A stretch of DNA of 64,000 bases from Escherichia coli (GCF_013122565.1 NZ_CP053258.1); one strand, 5' to 3'. Positions 29,518 through 64,000 are shown, numbered from the stretch's first letter. A program made the numbers and translations. The notes: generated by a model not told the origin, from the sequence alone.

Positions 29518-30132
29518 TTATTCTTCAATCGCTAACAATTGCAATGAACCACGGCTAAAATCCGCCAGCTTTGCGGAAAATTCAGCCACTTTCGCCGCCG
29601 GAAGCGCCACCCGCAGCAGAACGAATGCCTGATAATCACTGTTGATAATTTTGCCGTCACACTGCCCCAGCAACGCTTCAATGCCGGTTAACTGATGATA
29701 TTCACATTGCAAAGTATATTCGGTTAATGGCGTCTTGCGTTGGGTCGTTAGCTGGCGCAGCGCCTGATTCACGCCGCCGCCATACGCTTTCACTAACCCA
29801 CCGGTGCCAAGCAATATGCCGCCGTAGTAGCGCACTACCACAGCGGTAATTTCCCCAACGCCGCTGCCCATTAGCTGGGCGAGCATCGGTTTACCTGCCG
29901 TTCCCGCCGGCTCCCCATCGTCAGAGAAACCCAGCTGTTGTGAATCATCCGGCGCACCCGCCACCCACGCCACGCAATGGTGCCGGGCATCGGGGTGTTC
30001 TGCCCGTACCGATTCAACAAACGCTTTCGCCGCCTCAACGCCATCGGTATGCGCCAACATCGTTATGAAGCGGCTCTTTTTGATCTCTTCAACGACCGTG
30101 ACCGGTGCCGCAGGAATTAACCAGCTTTCCAT
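29518..30132 (-). CDS. yigZ: IMPACT-family protein YigZ
   Basis: ORF with UPF0029/IMPACT N-domain; start set at [10 protein letters not shown]; abuts pepQ. Confidence 0.85.
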   Translation of the reverse strand: MESWLIPAAPVTVVEEIKKSRFITMLAHTDGVEAAKAFVESVRAEHPDARHHCVAWVAGAPDDSQQLGFSDDGEPAGTAGKPMLAQLMGSGVGEITAVVVRYYGGILLGTGGLVKAYGGGVNQALRQLTTQRKTPLTEYTLQCEYHQLTGIEALLGQCDGKIINSDYQAFVLLRVALPAAKVAEFSAKLADFSRGSLQLLAIEE

Positions 30133-31463
30133 CACGCCAGTTTCAGATCCCGGGTCATGTTTTCCACGTTGTTTTCGTGGATCACCACGTTGTCTTCGAT
30201 ACGAATGCCGCCGAACGGTTTCAGTGCTTCAATTTTCTGCCAGTTGAAGTGCTTGCTGAACTGCCCTTCACGCCACGGTGCCAGCAGCGATTCAATGAAG
30301 TAAATACCCGGTTCGATGGTTAACACCATGCCCGGCTGGAGAATACGGGTGCAGCGCAGGTACGGATATTTTGCCGGTGCCGCGAGGTGCGTACCGCTAT
30401 CATCTTGCATAAAGCCAGCTACGTCATGCACCTGCAGGCCCAGCGGATGGCCGATACCGTGCGGCATAAACGGTCCGGTGAGATCGTTTTCGACCATCGC
30501 TTCTTCACTCATATCGGTGATGATTTGATGTTTACGCAGCAATTTGGCGATGCGCTGATGGAACTGGATGTGGTAATCCACATAGCTGACGCCTGCTTTC
30601 ATGGTGGCGATCAGCGCCAGTTGTTCATCATTTACGTCTTTCACCAGCTGTGCGTAGTCGTTGTCACTTTTTGCCGACCAGGTACGAGTCAGGTCAGCCG
30701 CATAGCCGTTATATTCGGCCCCGGCATCCAGCAGGAAGCTGCGCATCTCTTCCGGTGCCTGATGATCCAGTTTGGTATAATGCAGTACCGCAGCGTGTTC
30801 ATTAAGCGCCACAATGTTGCTGTAAGGTACGTCGGTATCACGATGACCGGTCGCGGTCAGATAAGCAATGTTGATATCGAACTCGCTCATGCCAGAACGG
30901 AACGCTTCTTCTGCCGCGCGATGACCGTTGACCGCCATTTTCTGCGCTTCACGCATACAGGCCAGTTCGTACTCGGTTTTGAAGGAGCGATAGTAATGCA
31001 GGTAGTCGATCACCCCTTTCGGGTTGATGTTGCTGGCCTCAATACCCAGTTGCAGCGCACGTTCCGGCACCGGACCGATATAACCGATATTGCCGCGCGC
31101 AGCAGGCAGCAGGCTACCAATGCCATCGGCTTTCGGCAGCGCGATCACTTCCACATCTTCAGTCCAGAAGGAGTTCGGCAGCGGTTCGACGTTGTGCCAG
31201 TAATCAACCGGCAGATAAAACCACAGTTTCGGCTTGTTCACGCCATCCACCAGCAACCAGCAGTTTGGCACCTGAGTTACCGGCACCCATGCTTTGAATT
31301 GCGGGTTCACTTTAAACGGATAGGGATGATCGTCGAGAAAAACGTTGAACAGTTCGCCGGAGTGAATAAGTAACGCATCCAGCTTGAAGCGCGCCAGCGC
31401 ATCGCGAGTCCGTTCCTGTAAGGTAGCTATATGATTTTTATAGAGTGAGGCCAGTGATTCCAT
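30132..31463 (-). CDS. pepQ: Xaa-Pro dipeptidase (prolidase), M24B metallopeptidase
   Basis: 443-aa [29 protein letters not shown] with [13 protein letters not shown] metal-binding motif. Confidence 0.95.
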
Positions 31464-31610
31464 TTTTTACCCTTCTGTTTTTTTGACCTTAAGTCTCCGC
31501 ATCTTAGCACATCGTTCATCCAGAGCGTGATTTCTGCCGAGCGTGATCAGATCGGCATTTCTTTAATCTTTTGTTTGCATATTTTTAACACAAAATACAC
31601 ACTTCGACTC

Positions 31611-31627
31611 ATCTGGTACGACCAGAT
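31611..31627 (+). promoter_or_regulatory. FadR operator in fadB promoter
   Basis: atctggtacgaccagat palindrome about 30 nt upstream of fadB start. Confidence 0.7.
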
Positions 31628-31652
31628 CACCTTGCGGATTCAGGAGACTGAC

Positions 31653-33842
31653 ATGCTTTACAAAGGCGACACCCTGTACCTTGACTGGCTGGAAGATGGC
31701 ATTGCCGAACTGGTATTTGATGCCCCAGGTTCAGTTAATAAACTCGACACTGCGACCGTCGCCAGCCTCGGCGAGGCCATCGGCGTGCTGGAACAGCAAT
31801 CAGATCTAAAAGGGCTGCTGCTGCGTTCGAACAAAGCAGCCTTTATCGTCGGTGCTGATATCACCGAATTTTTGTCCCTGTTCCTCGTTCCTGAAGAACA
31901 GTTAAGCCAGTGGCTGCATTTTGCCAATAGCGTGTTTAATCGCCTGGAAGATCTGCCGGTGCCGACCATTGCTGCCGTCAACGGCTATGCGCTGGGCGGT
32001 GGCTGCGAATGCGTGCTGGCGACCGATTATCGTCTGGCGACGCCGGATCTGCGCATCGGTCTGCCGGAAACCAAACTGGGCATCATGCCGGGCTTTGGCG
32101 GTTCTGTACGTATGCCACGTATGCTGGGCGCTGACAGTGCGCTGGAAATCATTGCCGCCGGTAAAGATGTCGGCGCGGATCAGGCGCTGAAAATCGGTCT
32201 GGTGGATGGTGTAGTCAAAGCAGAAAAACTGGTTGAAGGGGCGATGGCGATTTTACGCCAGGCCATTAACGGCGACCTCGACTGGAAAGCAAAACGTCAG
32301 CCGAAGCTGGAACCGCTAAAACTGAGCAAGATTGAAGCCACCATGAGCTTCACCATCGCTAAAGGGATGGTCGCACAAACGGCGGGGAAACATTATCCGG
32401 CCCCCATCACCGCAGTAAAAACCATTGAAGCTGCGGCCCGTTTTGGTCGTGAAGAAGCATTAAACCTGGAAAACAAAAGTTTTGTCCCGCTGGCGCACAC
32501 CAACGAAGCCCGCGCACTGGTCGGCATCTTCCTTAACGATCAATATGTAAAAGGCAAAGCGAAGAAACTCACCAAAGACGTTGAAACCCCGAAACAGGCC
32601 GCTGTGCTGGGCGCAGGCATTATGGGCGGCGGCATCGCTTACCAGTCTGCATGGAAAGGCGTGCCGGTTGTCATGAAAGATATCAACGACAAGTCGTTAA
32701 CCCTCGGCATGACCGAAGCCGCGAAACTGCTGAACAAGCAGCTTGAACGCGGCAAGATCGATGGTCTGAAACTGGCTGGCGTGATCTCCACGATCCACCC
32801 AACGCTCGATTACGCCGGATTTGACCGCGTGGATGTTGTAGTAGAAGCGGTTGTTGAAAACCCGAAAGTGAAAAAAGCCGTACTGGCAGAAACCGAGCAG
32901 AAAGTACGCCCGGATACCGTGCTGGCGTCTAACACTTCAACCATTCCTATCAGCGAACTGGCCAACGCGCTGGAACGTCCGGAAAACTTCTGCGGGATGC
33001 ACTTCTTTAACCCGGTCCACCGAATGCCGTTGGTGGAAATTATTCGCGGCGAGAAAAGCTCCGACGAAACCATCGCGAAAGTCGTCGCCTGGGCGAGCAA
33101 GATGGGCAAAACGCCGATTGTGGTTAACGACTGCCCCGGCTTCTTCGTCAACCGTGTGCTGTTCCCGTATTTCGCCGGTTTCAGCCAGCTGCTGCGCGAC
33201 GGCGCGGATTTCCGCAAGATCGACAAAGTGATGGAAAAACAGTTTGGCTGGCCGATGGGTCCGGCATATCTGCTGGACGTTGTGGGCATTGACACCGCGC
33301 ATCACGCTCAGGCAGTCATGGCAGCAGGCTTCCCGCAGCGGATGCAGAAAGATTATCGCGATGCCATCGACGCGCTGTTTGATGCCAACCGCTTTGGTCA
33401 GAAGAACGGCCTCGGTTTCTGGCGTTATAAAGAAGACAGCAAAGGTAAGCCGAAGAAAGAAGAAGACGCCGCTGTTGACGACCTGCTGGCAGAAGTGAGC
33501 CAGCCGAAGCGCGATTTCAGCGAAGAAGAGATTATCGCCCGCATGATGATCCCGATGGTCAACGAAGTGGTGCGCTGTCTGGAAGAAGGCATTATCGCCA
33601 CTCCGGCAGAAGCGGATATGGCGCTGGTCTACGGCCTGGGCTTCCCTCCGTTCCACGGCGGCGCGTTCCGCTGGCTGGACACCCTCGGCAGCGCAAAATA
33701 CCTCGATATGGCACAGCAATATCAGCACCTCGGCCCGCTATACGAAGTGCCGGAAGGTCTGCGTAATAAAGCACGTCATAACGAACCGTACTATCCCCCG
33801 GTTGAGCCAGCCCGTCCGGTTGGCGACCTGAAAACGGCTTAA
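31653..33842 (+). CDS. fadB: Fatty acid oxidation complex alpha subunit (enoyl-CoA hydratase / 3-hydroxyacyl-CoA dehydrogenase)
   Basis: Start set at [20 protein letters not shown] (729 aa); crotonase and NAD-binding [10 protein letters not shown] motifs. Confidence 0.95.
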
Positions 33843-35015
<1,173 letters not shown>

Positions 35016-35017
35016 GC

Positions 35018-35220
<203 letters not shown>

Positions 35221-35266
35221 GTCATAGATCTAAATGCCACTGAATAACAGTTTAGTTGCCGTTCTT

Positions 35267-35292
35267 CCCGCCTGTCAGGGGCGGGTTTTTTA
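35267..35292 (+). terminator. Intrinsic terminator (fadBA operon end)
   Basis: cccgcctgtcaggggcggg hairpin followed by TTTTTT. Confidence 0.65.
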
Positions 35293-35296
35293 TATC

Positions 35297-35998
35297 TCAG
35301 ATAAATGCAAACGCATCGCCAAACAGGCGATCTTCCCGCGCATTACGCTCACTGCAAAACAGGTCACGAGCAATTTTCGCCATCTCAAAACGTCCGGCAA
35401 TATAGATATCATGCTCTGCCAGCGTACCGTGATCCTGCAATACCGCCGTTAACACGGTGCCAGTACGCCCACGCCAGCCCGCTTCCGGTTGTTCAACCAC
35501 CGGCACCACTTGCAGACCAGGGTGCTTTAACGAAAGCGCCTCAAGCTCGCAGAGATCATACAGATGCTGCTCTTCACGCCCGCCCCAGTAAATGGTGATA
35601 TCACGGTTTGGGTTACGCGCCAACGCTGTCAGCAAAATCGAGCGGGCATAAGAGAACCCGGTGCCGCCCGCAATCAAAATCATCGGACGCTCTTCATCAT
35701 CGCGCAGCCACGCTTCTCCGTGGGGAATATCGACCACGATTTGATGATCTTTGAGGATGCGGTCCATGACTGCTTTCGCGTAAAGGTTGATTTCAGAAGC
35801 GCCAATATGCAGCTCGATAAACCCTTTTTCATCCGGCGTCGAGGCCATTGAGAACGGACGTTTGTCGCGCTCATCCATCACTACCATCAAATACTGACCA
35901 GCACGAAAAGAAAAGGCCGCGTCTGGCACGATGCGGACACGATATACGGTATCCGTGATAGCTTCTACCGAGGTCACTTTACAGCTTAAGGTTGTCAT
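35297..35998 (-). CDS. fre: NAD(P)H-flavin reductase
   Basis: Start set at [21 protein letters not shown] (233 aa); FNR-like RPFSMAS flavin motif. Confidence 0.93.
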
Positions 35999-36043
35999 GC
36001 GCTTTCTCTGTCGGATCGATAAATAGGGCAAAACAAACGCGCA

Positions 36044-58671: not shown

Positions 58672-59559
58672 ATGGATGCAAAACAAACGCGGCAGGGCGT
58701 ATTACTCGCTCTTGCCGCTTATTTTATTTGGGGTATTGCGCCAGCGTACTTCAAGCTGATTTACTACGTGCCCGCCGATGAGATCCTGACGCATCGCGTG
58801 ATCTGGTCGTTTTTCTTTATGGTGGTGCTGATGAGCATTTGCCGCCAGTGGTCCTATTTAAAAACGCTGATTCAGACGCCACAGAAAATTTTTATGCTGG
58901 CAGTCTCTGCCGTGCTGATTGGTGGCAACTGGCTACTGTTTATCTGGGCGGTGAACAATCACCATATGCTGGAAGCGAGCCTTGGTTACTTTATTAACCC
59001 GCTGGTGAACATTGTGCTGGGGATGATTTTCCTCGGCGAGCGATTCCGCCGGATGCAATGGCTGGCGGTGATTCTGGCGATATGTGGCGTGTTGGTCCAG
59101 CTGTGGACTTTTGGTTCGCTACCTATTATCGCGCTGGGGCTGGCATTTAGTTTTGCCTTCTACGGCCTGGTGCGCAAGAAGATTGCGGTAGAAGCACAAA
59201 CCGGCATGTTAATTGAAACCATGTGGCTGCTGCCCGTGGCAGCGATTTACCTGTTTGCTATTGCCGACAGCTCAACCAGCCATATGGGGCAAAACCCGAT
59301 GTCGCTGAATTTACTGCTGATCGCCGCCGGTATTGTCACTACCGTACCGCTGTTGTGTTTTACTGCAGCTGCGACACGCCTGCGTCTCTCAACGTTAGGC
59401 TTTTTCCAGTATATTGGCCCGACGCTGATGTTTCTGCTGGCTGTGACGTTTTATGGTGAAAAACCGGGTGCCGATAAGATGGTGACTTTCGCCTTTATTT
59501 GGGTGGCGCTGGCAATTTTTGTGATGGATGCGATTTATACGCAGCGTAGAAAAAGTTAG
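58672..59559 (+). CDS. rarD: EamA/DMT-family transporter RarD
   Basis: 295-aa ten-TM ORF MDAKQTRQGVLLALAAYFIWGIAPAYFK. Confidence 0.93.
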   Translation: MDAKQTRQGVLLALAAYFIWGIAPAYFKLIYYVPADEILTHRVIWSFFFMVVLMSICRQWSYLKTLIQTPQKIFMLAVSAVLIGGNWLLFIWAVNNHHMLEASLGYFINPLVNIVLGMIFLGERFRRMQWLAVILAICGVLVQLWTFGSLPIIALGLAFSFAFYGLVRKKIAVEAQTGMLIETMWLLPVAAIYLFAIADSSTSHMGQNPMSLNLLLIAAGIVTTVPLLCFTAAATRLRLSTLGFFQYIGPTLMFLLAVTFYGEKPGADKMVTFAFIWVALAIFVMDAIYTQRRKS

Positions 59560-59605
59560 GCATTAACATGGGTAGGCCATTTAAAAAGCCTACCCACTGA
59601 CTTAT

Positions 59606-59923
59606 CTATCTTTTTTTGAAAAAAATTAAGATAAGAAAAAGTACGATATTTGTTACAGGAAATACACCCAAAACTCCCCAGTACTTACTCCATCCTAGAG
59701 ACATTGTATATCTACCAAGGATTTGACAAAACCCAAAACTTAACCCTATACCTATACTTCTTAAATTTAATGTCGTAGTCAGGCTTAAAATAAATAGAAC
59801 AAGGATGGTAATAGCCCACCACAATAACCACGCCTTAACAAAATCAGATTTTTTGCTGTAAGGTTCTTTACCCAAGAACAACTGCCAAAAATTACCATTT
59901 TCCATATAGAAACCATTCACCAA
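59606..59923 (-). CDS. Small AT-rich inner membrane protein (two or three TM helices)
   Basis: 105-aa ORF in strongly AT-rich DNA; hydrophobic segments WLLWWAITILVLFILSL and VLGVFPVTNIVLFLILIFF; may correspond to one of the K-12 yigF/yigG small membrane genes. Confidence 0.5.
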   Translation of the reverse strand: MVNGFYMENGNFWQLFLGKEPYSKKSDFVKAWLLWWAITILVLFILSLTTTLNLRSIGIGLSFGFCQILGRYTMSLGWSKYWGVLGVFPVTNIVLFLILIFFKKR

Positions 59924-60109
59924 AAGTATTATTCATGGAAACAAATATTATTTAATTATATTTAGTCCCCCTCAATAAAAACTTACACACTCTAAATTAC
60001 TACTGTATAGTTATCAATACAAAGGCTGTCATATTGCATGGATATAACAAGCATATGCTCTAAATAATGTATATACACTTAAACCAATCATATACTAAAC
60101 AATATAAAA

Positions 60110-60496
60110 ATGTTTAAACCATCTATTAAAAATATGTTTTACCCATCCACACTTGAGCGTTTATCACGTTTGCAGTTCATAATTTACACATTAATATCAT
60201 GGACAATATTAATAACTTTGAATGATATCAACCTGGCTTTGAGTTTCATTCTGGTCATCACTAATACGTATGTGAATATCAATATCGGAGCTAAAAGAAT
60301 AAGAGATACTGGATGTAAGGCAATCTACTTCGTATTGATTTCATTGGGTTTGACACTTTTTTCTATTATCTCTGCAGCAATTGAAGGGGTGAGATGTGAT
60401 TCATTAAGCGTCCAACTGAACGTGGCATGGATAGTATTCACAACAATTATGTTATCTGCGATTCCCTCGGCTAAAATGTCGCTGTCAGCACACTAA
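60110..60496 (+). CDS. Small AT-rich inner membrane protein, DUF805-like (IGAKRIRDTG motif)
   Basis: 128-aa ORF with three hydrophobic segments and an R-x-R-D-x-G motif reminiscent of DUF805 proteins; divergent from the preceding ORF. Confidence 0.55.
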   Translation: MFKPSIKNMFYPSTLERLSRLQFIIYTLISWTILITLNDINLALSFILVITNTYVNINIGAKRIRDTGCKAIYFVLISLGLTLFSIISAAIEGVRCDSLSVQLNVAWIVFTTIMLSAIPSAKMSLSAH

Positions 60497-60520
60497 CTTA
60501 CTCACAGCGACATCGTATAG

Positions 60521-61471
60521 TTACAGCCAGTTCTTCCGCTTAAAGTACAGATACGGTGCCAGGCCCGCGAGGATCATAAAGATAATCGCGCCTGGGTAGC
60601 CGAAGCTCCACTTCAGTTCTGGCATAAACTCAAAGTTCATCCCGTAGCTGGAAGCAACCAGCGTTGGCGGCAGGAACACGACGGATACCACCGAGAAAAT
60701 TTTGATGATGCGGTTCTGCTCGATGTTGATAAAACCCATTGCCGCCTGCATCAGGAAGTTCACCTTCTGGAACAGGGATTCGTTATGCGGCAGCAGGGAT
60801 TCGATATCTCGCAGGATTTCACGCGCCTGCTCCAGTTGACCACCCGGTAAACGCGCCTTACGCACCAGGAAGTTGAGCGCACGCTGGGTATCCATCAGAC
60901 ACAGGCGCACTTTCCAGCCGATATCTTCCAGTTCCGCCAGCGTGGAGAGCGCCTCGTCGTACTCATCGCCCTGATGCCCTTCCATAATCACCCGACTCAA
61001 CTGCTCCAGGTCGCTATAGATATTTTCAATTTCATCTGCCAACTGTTCGATTTTGGTTTCGAACAGATCCAGCAGCAGCTCGTAGGCGTTACCGTCTACC
61101 ATCGACTGGCTACGAGCACGCATACGATACAGACGAAAAGCGGGCAGTTCACGCTCACGCAGAGTAAACAGACGACCATCACGGATGGTAAATGCCACAG
61201 TGGAGTTACCGGCGTGATCTTCCGCATCTTCAAAGAAGAAGAAGGAGTGAATATGCAGGCCGTCGTCGTCTTCAAAGAAACGTGCCGATGCTTCGATGTC
61301 TTCCAGTTCCGGGCGGGTTGCCAGGCTCTGGCCAAGTTCAGATTGTACGCGCAGTCGCTCGTCGTCGTCCGGTTCGACAAGATCAATCCATACTGCATTT
61401 ACAAGGGGTTGTGACTCTTCGACTTCCAGCCGGGTCAGTCGGTTATTTTCCAGTTGAAATGCGCTCAGCAT
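60521..61471 (-). CDS. corA: Magnesium/cobalt transport protein CorA
   Basis: Start set at [16 protein letters not shown] (316 aa); C-terminal YGMNF motif and two TM helices. Confidence 0.96.
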
Positions 61472-61840
61472 GACCGGGACTCCCAATGCTTAAAATATCG
61501 GACAGTTCGGTGGGCACACAGAAACAAATTGGGTTTCAGACCATTAAACAGCCTGACTCAGCGCGACGGGAAAAATTGAGGTCGCTGACAACCGCTAAGG
61601 CTATCAGCAAAAAGGGATAGCCTTAGGAGTTGATCCTGGATGACAGGATAGTGAGCCAGTATCTACTGGGTGTGTCCAAGGCGAATGTCCTCTTAGAGTG
61701 ATCGTGCGCGCATGTTACGCCAGCAAAATTTTGCCGTCAACACGCAACAGAACACCACAGAACAATAGTTGAACTTCGCGCTTTTTGGTACTCGTCAAGG
61801 TCGCTAACAGGATAAAAAAATCCCACATCCAGGACCTATA

Positions 61841-62605
61841 ATGGCGCATCGGCTACTCATTGGTAAAGGAATGATCACCTTGAATCTCAAACGGATTTTT
61901 CTCGCCCTCACCTTACTTCCCTTGTTTGCTGTTGCCGCTGATGATTGCGCACTCTCAGATCCGACGCTGACCGTACAGGCGTATACCGTTAATCCTCAAA
62001 CAGAGCGGGTGAAAATGTACTGGCAAAAAGCCAATGGCGAAGCGTGGGGAACGTTACATGCTCTGCTGGCGGAGATGAATAGTCAGGGTCAGGTGCAGAT
62101 GGTGATGAACGGCGGCATCTATGATGAAAGCTATGCGCCACTCGGTTTGTACATCGAAAACGGTCAGCAGAAGGTGGCGTTAAATCTCGCTTCAGGTGAA
62201 GGGAATTTCTTTATCCGTCCTGGCGGCGTGTTTTATGTCGCGGGAGATAAAGTCGGCATCGTTCGTCTGGATGCCTTTAAAACCAGTAAAGAGATTCAGT
62301 TTGCGGTGCAGTCAGGGCCAATGTTGATGGAAAACGGCGTAATTAATCCGCGTATTCATCCCAACGTCGCCTCACGCAAAATTCGTAACGGTGTTGGGAT
62401 TAATAAACATGGGAACGCCGTGTTTTTGTTGAGCCAGCAGGCGACAAATTTTTATGATTTTGCCTGTTATGCCAAAGCGAAACTGAACGTTGAGCAGTTG
62501 CTTTACCTTGATGGCACGATTTCACATATGTATGTGAAAGGAGGCGAGATCCCCTGGCAGCGTCATCCTTTTGTCACCATGATTGCCGTCGAGCGGAAAG
62601 GTTAG
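61841..62605 (+). CDS. yigE: DUF2233-family exported protein YigE
   Basis: 254-aa ORF with signal peptide (LALTLLPLFAVAADDCAL). Confidence 0.85.
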   Translation: MAHRLLIGKGMITLNLKRIFLALTLLPLFAVAADDCALSDPTLTVQAYTVNPQTERVKMYWQKANGEAWGTLHALLAEMNSQGQVQMVMNGGIYDESYAPLGLYIENGQQKVALNLASGEGNFFIRPGGVFYVAGDKVGIVRLDAFKTSKEIQFAVQSGPMLMENGVINPRIHPNVASRKIRNGVGINKHGNAVFLLSQQATNFYDFACYAKAKLNVEQLLYLDGTISHMYVKGGEIPWQRHPFVTMIAVERKG

Positions 62606-62640
62606 AATGATAGTTTTGTGTCAGATACTAAATATGGTGC

Positions 62641-62676
62641 TGATGCCGGATGCGACGTAAACGCCTTATCCGGCCT
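62641..62676. repeat. REP element
   Basis: tgccggatgcgacgtaaacgccttatccggcctac. Confidence 0.75.
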
Positions 62677-62750
62677 ACATGACGTTGCAATTTATTGAAT
62701 CTGAATGATTTTTAGGCCAAATAAGGTGTGCAGCACCGCATCCGGCAACG

Positions 62751-64000
62751 TTACACCGCCTCCAGCCGGGCGTAAGCCGCCACCAGCCATTTGATTCCCT
62801 GGCCCTGGAATGCCACCTGCAAACGGCTATGTTCACCGCTGCCTTCCATATTGACGATGGTGCCTTCACCAAACTTAGCGTGGCGTACGCGCTGGCCGAG
62901 CTTGTAGCCGCTGTCGTTCTCGACCATCGGCGTACCCATACGCTGATGGCTGACCGGGCGGCTTACCGTAGCGCGTAAACGCACCTCTTCCACACACTCT
63001 TCCGGCAGCTCGCCGATAAAGCGCGACGGGCGATGGTAAACCTCTTTACCATACAGACGGCGAGTTTCCGCGTAGGTCAGCGTCAGTTTCTGCATCGCGC
63101 GGGTTACGCCAACGTAGGCCAGACGGCGTTCTTCTTCCAGACGTCCGCCTTCATCCAGCGACATCTGGCTTGGGAACATGCCCTCTTCCATACCGACAAT
63201 AAACACCTGCGGAAACTCCAGACCTTTCGCCGAGTGTAGCGTCATCAACTGCACCGCATCCTGCCAGGTATCCGCCTGCCCTTCACCTGCTTCCAGCGCC
63301 GCATGGGAGAGGAACGCCTGCAGCGGCATTAAATCTTCGTCTTCTTCGTTGTAGCTGAACTGGCGCGTTGCCGTCACCAGTTCCTCTAAGTTTTCGATAC
63401 GCGTCTGACCTTTTTCGCCCTTCTCCTGCTCGTACATGGTGCGCAGGCCGGAGTCTTTAATTACCCGGTCAGTCTGTACATGCAGCGGCATATCGGCAGT
63501 TTCCTGCGCTAAGGCGTCGATTAATTCCATAAACCGCTGTAAGGCGCTGGCAGCACGTCCGGCGAGGGCTTTTTCCTGCAACAGTTCACGACATGCCTGC
63601 CAGAGTGTTAACTGGCGATCGCGCGATGTCTGACGTACCACGTCCAGCGTCCGGTCACCAATACCCCGCGTTGGCGTATTCACCACACGCTCAAACGCCG
63701 CGTCATCATTACGGTTGGCAATCAGGCGCAGATACGAGAGCGCATCTTTGATTTCCTGGCGTTCGAAGAAGCGCATCCCGCCGTAAATACGGTACGGCAT
63801 ACTCGCCTGCAACAGTGCCTCTTCCAGCACACGCGACTGGGCGTTGCTGCGGTAGAGAATGGCGCACTCGGCAAGCGCCCCGCCGTTGTCCTGCCAGGTT
63901 TTGATGCGGTTAACCACAAAACGCGCTTCGTCGAGTTCGTTAAAAGCGCAATAGAGGGAAATAGGCTCACCGTCCGCGCCATCGGTCCACAATTTTTTAC
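62751..64000 (-). CDS. uvrD: DNA helicase II UvrD, C-terminal ~416 codons (5' end beyond window)
   Basis: ORF running off the right edge; helicase motifs IV-VI region (VGVTRAMQKLTLTYAETRRLYG) and C-terminal ...QGIKWLVAAYARLEAV. Confidence 0.93.
   Translation of the reverse strand, partial: KKLWTDGADGEPISLYCAFNELDEARFVVNRIKTWQDNGGALAECAILYRSNAQSRVLEEALLQASMPYRIYGGMRFFERQEIKDALSYLRLIANRNDDAAFERVVNTPTRGIGDRTLDVVRQTSRDRQLTLWQACRELLQEKALAGRAASALQRFMELIDALAQETADMPLHVQTDRVIKDSGLRTMYEQEKGEKGQTRIENLEELVTATRQFSYNEEDEDLMPLQAFLSHAALEAGEGQADTWQDAVQLMTLHSAKGLEFPQVFIVGMEEGMFPSQMSLDEGGRLEEERRLAYVGVTRAMQKLTLTYAETRRLYGKEVYHRPSRFIGELPEECVEEVRLRATVSRPVSHQRMGTPMVENDSGYKLGQRVRHAKFGEGTIVNMEGSGEHSRLQVAFQGQGIKWLVAAYARLEAV

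What the first reader, a model, noticed from the sequence alone, without database searches (positions are those of the whole stretch)
59560..60520. AT-rich islet with two divergent small membrane-protein genes between rarD and corA
About 950 bp of strikingly AT-rich DNA (visibly far below the roughly 50% GC of the flanks; exact value needs computing) holds two divergently oriented ORFs (105 and 128 aa), both predicted small polytopic membrane proteins, one with a DUF805-like R-x-R-D-x-G motif. They are separated by about 190 bp of very AT-rich spacer with A/T tracts typical of H-NS-bound, horizontally acquired DNA. K-12 has small membrane genes (yigF/yigG) at this position, but I recall them on the same strand as each other, so this may be a variant or replaced cassette. 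The function of such pairs is unknown.
Basis: partly seen in the sequence, partly recalled or inferred. Interest (0 to 1): 0.5.

Follow-up and report, generated by a model that had tools for sequence, protein, structure and literature searches.

The report
Alternative small-membrane-gene cassette between rarD and corA
The AT-rich patch is real and carries two genuine small membrane-protein genes of an uncharacterised family; it is an old alternative version of the K-12 yigG-yigF locus, shared with Salmonella, not a recent foreign insert.

Summary
Window 59560-60520 has 33% GC, against 51.5% for the whole window, and is the lowest stretch in the 64 kb. It holds two divergent ORFs. ORF-A lies at 59606-59905 on the minus strand (99 aa from its ATG). 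ORF-B lies at 60110-60496 on the plus strand (128 aa). Both are real genes. Their dN/dS is 0.04-0.36. The same divergent pair sits between rarD and corA in Salmonella, Pseudocitrobacter and an unnamed enterobacterium.

ORF-B is Z5337 in strain EDL933 and is a distant full-length homolog of K-12 YigG (27% identity). ORF-A is not related to YigF. Both have a DUF805-like fold, with 4 and 3 predicted TM helices.

In 5426 complete E. coli genomes this site is polymorphic. The K-12 yigG-yigF cassette is in 2408 genomes and this cassette in 1463. In most carriers read, this cassette is followed by a corA fragment and a colicin-M-like effector/immunity pair (DUF3289/DUF943).

Salmonella also carries both cassette types. 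I found no mobility genes, flanking repeats, or plasmid or phage copies. So the cassette is ancient, not a recent acquisition.

Function is unknown. H-NS silencing is inferred from published data on the K-12 counterpart. The finding is of modest interest: divergent members of a known, uncharacterised family.

The parts
58672..59559 (+). rarD (EamA-family transporter), the left flank. Homology with K-12 ends 8 nt before its stop codon.
59560..60520 (.). AT-rich islet (33.0% GC). This is the 'B' haplotype of the rarD-corA cassette site.
59569..59596 (.). Hairpin between the convergent rarD and ORF-A 3' ends, probably a bidirectional terminator. Salmonella and Pseudocitrobacter have analogous hairpins with different sequences.
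   Evidence: z -3.6 on the + strand, -4.2 on the - strand
59606..59905 (-). ORF-A: a 99-aa protein with 3 predicted TM helices and a DUF805-like fold, from a very small uncharacterised family. PGAP calls it 'hypothetical protein'.
   Evidence: (dN/dS 0.04-0.08)
59906..60109 (.). Divergent intergenic spacer, 25.5% GC. It has 11 sigma-70-like matches against 4.7 +/- 2.2 in shuffles of the scanned region 59450-60650.
59972..60018 (.). 47-bp block identical in the four E. coli alleles aligned, although the islet as a whole differs by about 10%. It overlaps face-to-face promoter-like sites: + strand CTTACA-18-TATAGT at 59982-60011 and - strand TTGATA-17-TAGAGT at 60017-59989.
60110..60496 (+). ORF-B: a 128-aa protein with 4 predicted TM helices, a distant YigG homolog with a DUF805 fold. 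The R-I-R-D-T-G loop is at residues 63-68. It is Z5337 of EDL933. PGAP annotates it in none of the E. coli records read.
   Evidence: (dN/dS 0.15-0.36)
60476..60513 (.). Hairpin spanning the ORF-B stop codon and the 24-bp gap to the corA stop codon. It is a terminator-like structure for the convergent genes.
60521..61471 (-). corA (Mg/Co transporter), the right flank. Homology with K-12 resumes exactly at its stop codon.

Best explanation
The islet is one of several alternative gene cassettes that occupy the site between the convergent genes rarD and corA in Enterobacteriaceae. I call this one haplotype 'B'.

It encodes two small inner-membrane proteins with a DUF805-type fold. ORF-B (128 aa, 4 TM helices) is a deeply diverged full-length homolog of K-12 YigG. 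It keeps the family's R-x-R-D-x-G loop after the second helix. ORF-A (99 aa, 3 TM helices) belongs to a very small uncharacterised family. Its fold and its most distant relatives resemble DUF805, but the Asp of that loop has been lost.

The two genes are transcribed divergently from a 204-bp spacer of 25% GC. The spacer contains a 47-bp block that is invariant among E. coli alleles and overlaps sigma-70-like promoter matches on both strands. Each gene ends in a hairpin shared with the convergent flanking gene.

Shown here:
- Both ORFs are real genes under purifying selection.
- The arrangement is conserved at the same site in at least four genera.
- It alternates with the K-12 yigG-yigF cassette in both E. 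coli and Salmonella.

Inferred, not shown:
- The AT-rich DNA is bound and silenced by H-NS, as reported for the K-12 cassette.
- The genes are therefore expressed only under particular conditions.
- The products are dispensable, envelope-associated accessory proteins, possibly working as a pair of paralogous DUF805-fold subunits.

Their biochemical activity is unknown.
For: Real genes:
- dN/dS is 0.04-0.08 for ORF-A and 0.15-0.36 for ORF-B among E. coli alleles.
- Against Pseudocitrobacter, synonymous sites are saturated while dN is 0.29 (ORF-A) and 0.43 (ORF-B).
- Both reading frames were intact in all 9 good-quality E. coli loci read.

Conserved synteny:
- The order rarD> <ORF-A ORF-B> <corA is seen in Pseudocitrobacter (ORF-A 62%, ORF-B 47% identity).
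- It is seen in Salmonella (60%, about 50%).
- It is seen in a JGI metagenome enterobacterium (48%, 34%).

Homology and fold:
- ORF-B against K-12 YigG gives 27% identity over the full length, E 4e-5. It matches NCBIfam NF008474 at E 3e-7.
- A K-12-type YigG carries PF05656 in the precomputed Pfam data.
- The Foldseek list for ORF-B runs from Salmonella orthologs, through YigG-like proteins of other enterobacterial genera, to DUF805 proteins.
- For the ORF-A model (pLDDT 80.6), most of the top 50 Foldseek hits are DUF805 proteins.
- One remote ORF-A homolog matches Pfam DUF805 at i-E 1.8e-4. Two others align co-linearly over the whole model at weak E-values.

Population:
- B is in 1463 of 5426 genomes, A in 2408 and the C cassette in 2648.
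- Salmonella LT2 carries the A type, as shown by published knock-out primer arms. Other Salmonella carry the B type.

Not mobile:
- There are no flanking direct repeats.
- There is no phage match. The only two 'plasmid' hits are records of 1.0 and 4.8 Mb.
- ORF-A's dS (0.09-0.14) is about the same as the flank dS (about 0.10).

Regulation:
- The spacer holds an invariant 47-bp block and an excess of promoter-like sites.
- Both ends of the islet carry hairpins.
- The K-12 cassette is a protein-occupancy domain, an H-NS-silenced region and a 'promoter island' (PMC7229825, PMC3661553, bioRxiv 10.1101/2020.01.29.924811).
Against: - No expression, H-NS binding or phenotype data exist for this cassette. 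Literature searches for Z5337 and Z5336 returned nothing relevant.
- The window's own proteins do not reach Pfam significance: ORF-B against DUF805 gives E 0.39, and ORF-A has no DUF805 hit.
- The Foldseek E-values for ORF-A are individually weak (0.05-0.6). Small helical membrane proteins also tend to match each other non-specifically.
- hhalign found no ORF-A to ORF-B relation.
- ORF-B has no Shine-Dalgarno sequence. PGAP does not annotate it. In 3 of 9 E. coli loci its ATG has become ATA. It may therefore be weakly expressed or decaying in some lineages.
- Distant ORF-A homologs occur without an ORF-B-like neighbour on the short contigs available. A functional partnership between the two proteins is therefore not established.
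Confidence: 0.6

Rival explanations
1. The islet is a recently and horizontally acquired (xenogeneic) segment that replaced yigG-yigF in this lineage.
For: - GC is very low (33%) and GC3 is 0.32-0.37.
- The islet is absent from K-12 and from about 73% of E. coli genomes.
- Homology breaks sharply, right at the ends of the flanking genes.
- The site clearly exchanges cassettes: types A, B, BC and C plus mosaics.
Against: - The same gene pair sits at the same site in three other genera. Its protein divergence there (34-62% identity) is what old vertical descent would give.
- ORF-A's dS equals the flank dS.
- There is no integrase, tRNA, att-like repeat, or genuine plasmid or phage copy.
- The K-12 alternative is just as AT-rich and is itself classed as 'horizontally acquired' in the literature. 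Low GC therefore does not tell the two cassettes apart.
Confidence: 0.15
2. The cassette is a competition or immunity module. The small polytopic membrane proteins would act as orphan immunity or exclusion factors against membrane-targeting toxins, phages or colicins. Balancing selection would keep the alternative cassettes in the population.
For: - The same site carries a DUF3289/DUF943 pair in 2648 of 5426 E. coli genomes. That pair was shown to be a colicin-M-like toxin and its immunity protein (PMC11148199).
- The A/B dimorphism is present in both E. coli and Salmonella.
- Allelic diversity is high in ORF-B (dS 0.22-0.24) and in K-12-type YigG (66-100% amino-acid identity).
Against: - There are no PADLOC matches and only one non-significant PHROG match, E 0.076.
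- No toxin gene lies next to the pair in the window, Salmonella, Pseudocitrobacter or the JGI locus.
- No paper found that mentions DUF805 reports an immunity or defence role.
- dN/dS is well below 1, with no sign of diversifying selection.
Confidence: 0.12
3. One or both ORFs are chance reading frames or decaying pseudogenes in AT-rich, H-NS-coated spacer DNA.
For: - PGAP does not annotate ORF-B in any of the 9 RefSeq records read.
- ORF-B's start codon is ATA in 3 loci.
- ORF-B has no Shine-Dalgarno sequence.
- Many database entries for these proteins are partial.
Against: - Both frames are intact, with dN/dS of 0.04-0.36.
- Protein conservation is co-linear across four genera while synonymous sites are saturated.
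- The AF2 models are confident (pLDDT about 81).
- The start position is the same in all genera.
Confidence: 0.04

Closest known systems
E. coli K-12 YigG (b3818; NCBIfam NF008474/PRK11371)
   Same: ORF-B aligns with it over the full length at 27% identity. The two share the P12, R20, Y54, I57-N58, R63-x-R65-D66-x-G68, C96 and L103 positions and the 4-helix hydropathy pattern. Both lie in the AT-rich rarD-corA site.
   Different: ORF-B scores 30.6 bits against a cut-off of 217. It sits next to corA, not next to rarD. Its partner is the divergent ORF-A, not a co-directional downstream yigF.
Pfam DUF805 (PF05656; YhaH/YhaI family of small inner-membrane proteins, function unknown)
   Same: Both share the helical membrane fold and the basic loop motif R-x-R-D-x-G (RRLHDxG in DUF805, from my own knowledge of the family). 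The top structural neighbours of both models are DUF805 proteins. A remote ORF-A relative reaches i-E 1.8e-4 against the Pfam model.
   Different: Neither window protein reaches Pfam significance. ORF-A lacks the Asp of the loop (its sequence is G-R-Y-T-M-S-L-G). ORF-B/YigG has an extra C-terminal helix.
E. coli K-12 YigF (DUF2628)
   Same: It is a small membrane protein encoded in the alternative cassette at the same site.
   Different: Neither ORF-A nor ORF-B shows detectable similarity to it by BLASTP or hhalign.
DUF3289/DUF943 (YPO3983 family) colicin-M-like effector-immunity pair
   Same: It occupies the same rarD-corA site in about half of E. coli genomes. In the carriers read it lies directly downstream of the B cassette, separated by a 147-bp corA 3' fragment.
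   Different: It is not present in the window, where ORF-B's stop codon is 24 bp from the stop codon of an intact corA. It shows no sequence relation to ORF-A or ORF-B.

Membership tests
YigG equivalog (NCBIfam NF008474) | Whole-protein HMM score at or above the curated cut-off of 217 bits | tested here: not met
   ORF-B scores 30.6 bits, E 2.9e-7. K-12 YigG scores 255.6 bits.
YigG-like family in the broad sense | Full-length co-linear homology with conserved motif positions | tested here: met
   BLASTP gives 27% identity over 123 aa, E 4e-5. Invariant positions include R20, Y54, I57, N58, R63, R65, G68 and C96. The Foldseek list includes YigG of E. coli and YigG-like proteins of Kosakonia, Phytobacter, Mangrovibacter and others.
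Pfam DUF805 (PF05656), ORF-B | Significant match to the Pfam HMM | tested here: inconclusive
   ORF-B gives i-E 0.39. The best member of alignment A2 gives 0.023. Its homolog, K-12-type YigG, carries PF05656 in precomputed data and is named a DUF805 protein by UniRef. Structural neighbours are DUF805 proteins.
Pfam DUF805 (PF05656), ORF-A | Significant match to the Pfam HMM, plus the R-x-(H/R)-D-x-G loop | tested here: inconclusive
   ORF-A has no DUF805 hit. Among remote homologs, one reaches i-E 1.8e-4, P0111 gives 0.082 and P0113 gives 6.9. The last two align co-linearly over model positions 4-105. Most of the top 50 Foldseek hits are DUF805 proteins, but at E 0.05-0.6. The Asp of the loop is absent.
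DUF2628 / YigF | Sequence similarity to YigF | tested here: not met
   BLASTP E-values are above 1, and hhalign probabilities are 0.5% or lower.
Recently acquired genomic island | Mobility genes, flanking direct repeats or a tRNA target, and copies on plasmids or phages | tested here: not met
   The 961 bp hold only the two ORFs. There are no direct repeats. There is no phage match, and the only two 'plasmid' hits are chromosome-sized records.
Recently acquired genomic island | Absence from the same site in related genera | tested here: not met
   The pair is present at rarD-corA in Salmonella, Pseudocitrobacter and a JGI enterobacterium.
H-NS-silenced AT-rich region | H-NS occupancy and derepression in an hns mutant | not testable with these tools
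   Only the composition could be tested: 33% GC, W-runs covering 22.4% against 6.0%, and TpA steps 0.111 against 0.043. The published H-NS and occupancy-domain data concern the K-12 cassette.
Anti-phage defence system (PADLOC) | Match to a PADLOC model | tested here: not met
   No matches for ORF-A, ORF-B, YigG or YigF.
Type I toxin or small-RNA locus | Single-TM peptide under about 60 aa with an antisense RNA, or a match to an Rfam family | tested here: not met
   The proteins are 99 and 128 aa with 3 and 4 helices. No Rfam match below E 0.5 was found in 59000-62000.

The most novel reading that the evidence does not exclude
The rarD-corA site may carry an ancient dimorphism that crosses genus boundaries. 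Cassette A is yigG-yigF. Cassette B is ORF-A/ORF-B. Both segregate in E. coli and in Salmonella enterica and share only a 27%-identical YigG-type gene. Long-term balancing selection on these DUF805-fold membrane proteins would maintain the dimorphism, for example if they determine susceptibility or immunity to phages, colicins or contact-dependent toxins. The presence of a colicin-M-like effector/immunity pair at the same site fits that idea. If correct, this would give the large DUF805 family its first functional handle.
Probability: 0.15. Interest if true: 0.6.

Novelty: new member of a known kind. Interest (0 to 1): 0.3.

Why it matters
- It corrects a plausible misreading. Very low GC and absence from K-12 do not mean recent foreign DNA here. 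The cassette is at least as old as the E. coli/Salmonella split, and it is the arrangement seen in several other genera.
- It exposes an annotation gap. ORF-B (Z5337) is conserved and under purifying selection, yet RefSeq omits it in every E. coli record read, O157:H7 included.
- It defines a compact, naturally polymorphic locus with types A, B, B+C and C. That locus could be used to probe the function of DUF805/YigG-type membrane proteins, which is currently unknown, by swapping alleles.

Tried and rejected
- Pfam, NCBIfam, PADLOC and PHROGs scans of both window proteins gave nothing significant except the weak YigG model hit for ORF-B.
- hhalign of the ORF-A family against the ORF-B/YigG family and against YigF found no relation.
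- The exhaustive profile search for ORF-A found only 18 representatives among 1.84 billion proteins. The family is tiny, and the search gave no direct link to a named family.
With A3 it used narrow patterns and returned only 4 loci. Three were contigs labelled as gut-bacterium MAGs carrying 98-99%-identical ORF-A, which is probably E. coli contamination. The fourth was one Escherichia sp. The scan therefore gave no taxonomic survey.
- The Rfam scan of 59000-62000 found nothing credible.
- Literature searches for Z5337/Z5336, for DUF805/DUF2628, and for rarD+corA gave no functional information. The last search mostly returned coral papers.
- I tried to tie the Salmonella 'yigG' attachment and chlorine-stress phenotype (PMC3579871) to this cassette. 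The primers show that the LT2 gene is the K-12-type yigG, so the phenotype does not transfer to ORF-A or ORF-B.
- Locus L006 and locus L021 (CP147422) are full of frameshifts, and I did not use them for inference beyond noting mosaics.

Full report
**1. The observation**

The islet is real. GC falls from about 50-53% in rarD (58672-59559, +) and corA (60521-61471, -) to 33.0% over 59560-60520. The central spacer is 25.5% GC. No other 961-bp stretch of the 64-kb window is below 38% GC; the window mean is 51.5% with sd 3.9%.

Third-codon-position GC is 0.32 and 0.37 in the two ORFs, against 0.61-0.62 in the flanks. A/T-only runs of 6 or more bases cover 22.4% of the islet and 6.0% of the rest. 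TpA steps are 2.6 times more frequent in the islet.

The two divergent ORFs are present as described:
- ORF-A is 59606-59923 on the minus strand, 105 aa from a TTG.
- ORF-B is 60110-60496 on the plus strand, 128 aa.

For ORF-A, PGAP and the alignment across genera both support the ATG at 59905, which gives 99 aa.

**2. Are they genes?**

Yes. I compared nine good-quality E. coli alleles and one Pseudocitrobacter allele.
- Within E. coli, Nei-Gojobori dN/dS is 0.04-0.08 for ORF-A and 0.15-0.36 for ORF-B.
- Against Pseudocitrobacter, synonymous sites are saturated while dN is only 0.29 for ORF-A and 0.43 for ORF-B.
- Both frames are intact in all nine E. coli loci.
- In three loci (L009-L011) the ORF-B start codon has changed from ATG to ATA.

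The flanking genes rarD and corA differ from other E. coli by dS of about 0.10 with dN close to 0. ORF-A's dS (0.09-0.14) is about the same. ORF-B's dS against the common allele is about twice as high (0.22-0.24).

**3. What the proteins are**

Hydropathy and AlphaFold2 models agree on the architecture. The ORF-A model has pLDDT 80.6 and the ORF-B model 81.3. ORF-A has three long helices and ORF-B has four, each with a short N-terminal helix.

*ORF-B*
- It is a distant full-length homolog of K-12 YigG: 27% identity, E 4e-5.
- It matches NCBIfam NF008474 at E 3e-7, but scores only 30.6 bits against a cut-off of 217.
- The R-x-R-D-x-G loop at residues 63-68 is conserved, with D66 nearly invariant.
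- K-12-type YigG is itself classed as DUF805 in precomputed Pfam data and in UniRef names.
- The Foldseek list for ORF-B runs from Salmonella orthologs, through YigG-like proteins of Mangrovibacter, Phytobacter, Kosakonia, Pseudescherichia and Atlantibacter, to generic DUF805 proteins.
- In EDL933 this gene was annotated as Z5337 (AAG59013, Q8X3Y2).
- RefSeq's PGAP annotation omits it in all nine E. coli records I read.

*ORF-A*
- It has no Pfam or NCBIfam match.
- It shows no detectable relation to YigF or YigG.
- Its family is tiny: 18 representatives among 1.84 billion proteins.
- Three remote relatives at about 30% identity come from non-enterobacterial contigs. They align co-linearly with the whole DUF805 model, and the best reaches i-E 1.8e-4.
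- Most of the top 50 Foldseek neighbours of the ORF-A model are DUF805 proteins, although each E-value is weak.

I conclude that both proteins have a DUF805-type fold. Formal Pfam membership is not demonstrated for either window protein.

**4. Where the cassette occurs**

The window differs from K-12 across the entire stretch between rarD and corA, plus the last 8 nt of rarD. Homology stops 8 nt before the rarD stop codon and resumes exactly at the corA stop codon. K-12 has yigG then yigF, both on the same strand as rarD.

The site is polymorphic across 5426 complete E. coli genomes:
- The K-12-type cassette (A) covers at least 80% of its query in 2408 genomes.
- The window-type cassette (B) is in 1463 genomes.
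- A DUF3289 + DUF943 pair (C) is in 2648 genomes.

Seven of the eight E. coli carriers of B that I read, O157:H7 among them, have B, then a 147-bp corA 3' fragment, then C, then corA or C disrupted by insertion elements. The window and strain SCU-172 have B alone.

C-only strains keep about 190 bp of the A cassette, including the first 88 nt of yigG. C therefore replaced A in those strains. DUF3289/DUF943 has been shown experimentally to be a colicin-M-like toxin and its immunity protein (PMC11148199).

**5. Age of the cassette**

The same divergent pair lies between rarD and corA in three other settings:

| Organism | ORF-A identity | ORF-B identity |
|---|---|---|
| Pseudocitrobacter corydidari | 62% | 47% |
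| Salmonella enterica | 60% | about 50% |
| Unnamed enterobacterium, JGI metagenome | 48% | 34% |

The Salmonella clusters contain hundreds of members. Source names include serovars Java, Enteritidis and Oranienburg, and subspecies salamae.

Salmonella LT2 carries the A type. In the published knock-out primers for its 'yigG', one homology arm starts in the rarD 3' end. The reverse complement of the other arm encodes MDKDYINDGSLSEKW. That is the YigF N-terminus; K-12 YigF begins MSKEYMNDGSLSEKW. A-type YigG is also found in E. albertii and E. marmotae.

Both haplotypes therefore segregate in E. coli and in Salmonella.

I found no sign of a mobile vector:
- No direct repeats flank the islet.
- There is no phage match.
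- The only two 'plasmid' hits are records of 1.0 and 4.8 Mb.

Recent horizontal acquisition is therefore unlikely. The cassette is an old, still-segregating alternative.

**6. Regulatory anatomy**

All of this is inferred from sequence.
- The spacer has 11 sigma-70-like matches, against 4.7 +/- 2.2 in shuffles. This resembles the 'promoter island' described for K-12 yigF-yigG (PMC3661553).
- A 47-bp block at 59972-60018 is identical in the four E. coli alleles aligned, although the islet overall differs by about 10%.
- That block overlaps promoter-like sites on both strands.
- Hairpins lie between rarD and ORF-A (59569-59596) and across the ORF-B stop codon and corA gap (60476-60513).
- Salmonella and Pseudocitrobacter have hairpins of different sequence at the first of these positions.
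- No Rfam family matches the region.

H-NS binding cannot be tested with these tools. For the K-12 cassette, published work reports H-NS silencing of yigG and an extended protein-occupancy domain over yigF-yigG (PMC7229825; bioRxiv 10.1101/2020.01.29.924811).

**7. Function**

Function is unknown.
- DUF805 has no characterised member in the papers I searched.
- PADLOC gave no matches and PHROGs only one non-significant match.
- The Salmonella 'yigG' phenotype in attachment and chlorine stress belongs to the A-type gene. It does not transfer to this cassette.
- Distant ORF-A relatives occur without an ORF-B-like neighbour on the short contigs available. Pairing is consistent within Enterobacteriaceae but not shown to be obligatory.

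My best reading is that these are two dispensable inner-membrane accessory proteins with a DUF805 fold, expressed only under particular conditions and probably silenced by H-NS. An immunity or exclusion role maintained by balancing selection is a minority alternative. The neighbouring effector/immunity cassette and the cross-genus dimorphism suggest that role, but no homology supports it.

**8. Verdict**

Novelty is modest, since these are divergent members of a known but uncharacterised family that databases already list as hypothetical proteins. I score interest at 0.3.

Noticed in passing
window 60110-60496; L001, L002, L007-L012: RefSeq/PGAP annotates ORF-A but never ORF-B in the E. coli records read. 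ORF-B is nevertheless intact and under purifying selection, and it was called Z5337 in the original EDL933 annotation.
   Followed up: partly
L009:3561, L010:3559, L011:3559: In three E. coli strains the ORF-B start codon is ATA instead of ATG, and there is no alternative in-frame start. This may be loss or down-tuning of the gene in part of the population.
   Followed up: partly
L002, L007, L009-L012 (for example L007:3968-4114): In the carriers read, the B cassette is followed by a 147-bp corA 3' fragment and then a DUF3289/DUF943 (colicin-M-like effector/immunity) pair before the intact corA. The fragment is 89% identical to the strain's own corA and 93% to the window's corA. C-only strains keep the first 88 nt of K-12-type yigG.
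   Followed up: yes
L021:1543-3500 and L026:3001-5419: Two further mosaics occur at the same site. In the error-rich E. coli assembly CP147422 (L021), the B cassette is followed by a segment about 69% identical to K-12 yigG-yigF and then part of C. In L026 the order is yigG, a yigF fragment, a DUF3289 fragment, then yigF.
   Followed up: no
window 61623-61679 (-): An 18-codon YsgD/CorL-type leader ORF lies upstream of corA (LDTPSRYWLTILSSRINS). Its first codon reads TTG in this window.
   Followed up: no
window 30000-36000 and 60521-63500: No complete E. coli genome among 5426 is more than 98.0-98.5% identical to the window's core genes. The source is therefore a lineage not represented in that set. 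The 30000-36000 stretch also contains a short repeat that matches about 34 places per E. coli genome.
   Followed up: no
proteins P0049-P0106: K-12-type YigG is itself unusually diverse within Escherichia, at 66-100% amino-acid identity. The O25b:H4/ST131-type allele is about 76% identical to the K-12 protein.
   Followed up: no
L012:3551-4248; L008:4929-6839: IS1 is inserted in the ORF-A/ORF-B spacer of strain AR_0128. ISVsa5 copies disrupt the DUF3289 gene of strain HBUT-L. The site tolerates insertions.
   Followed up: no
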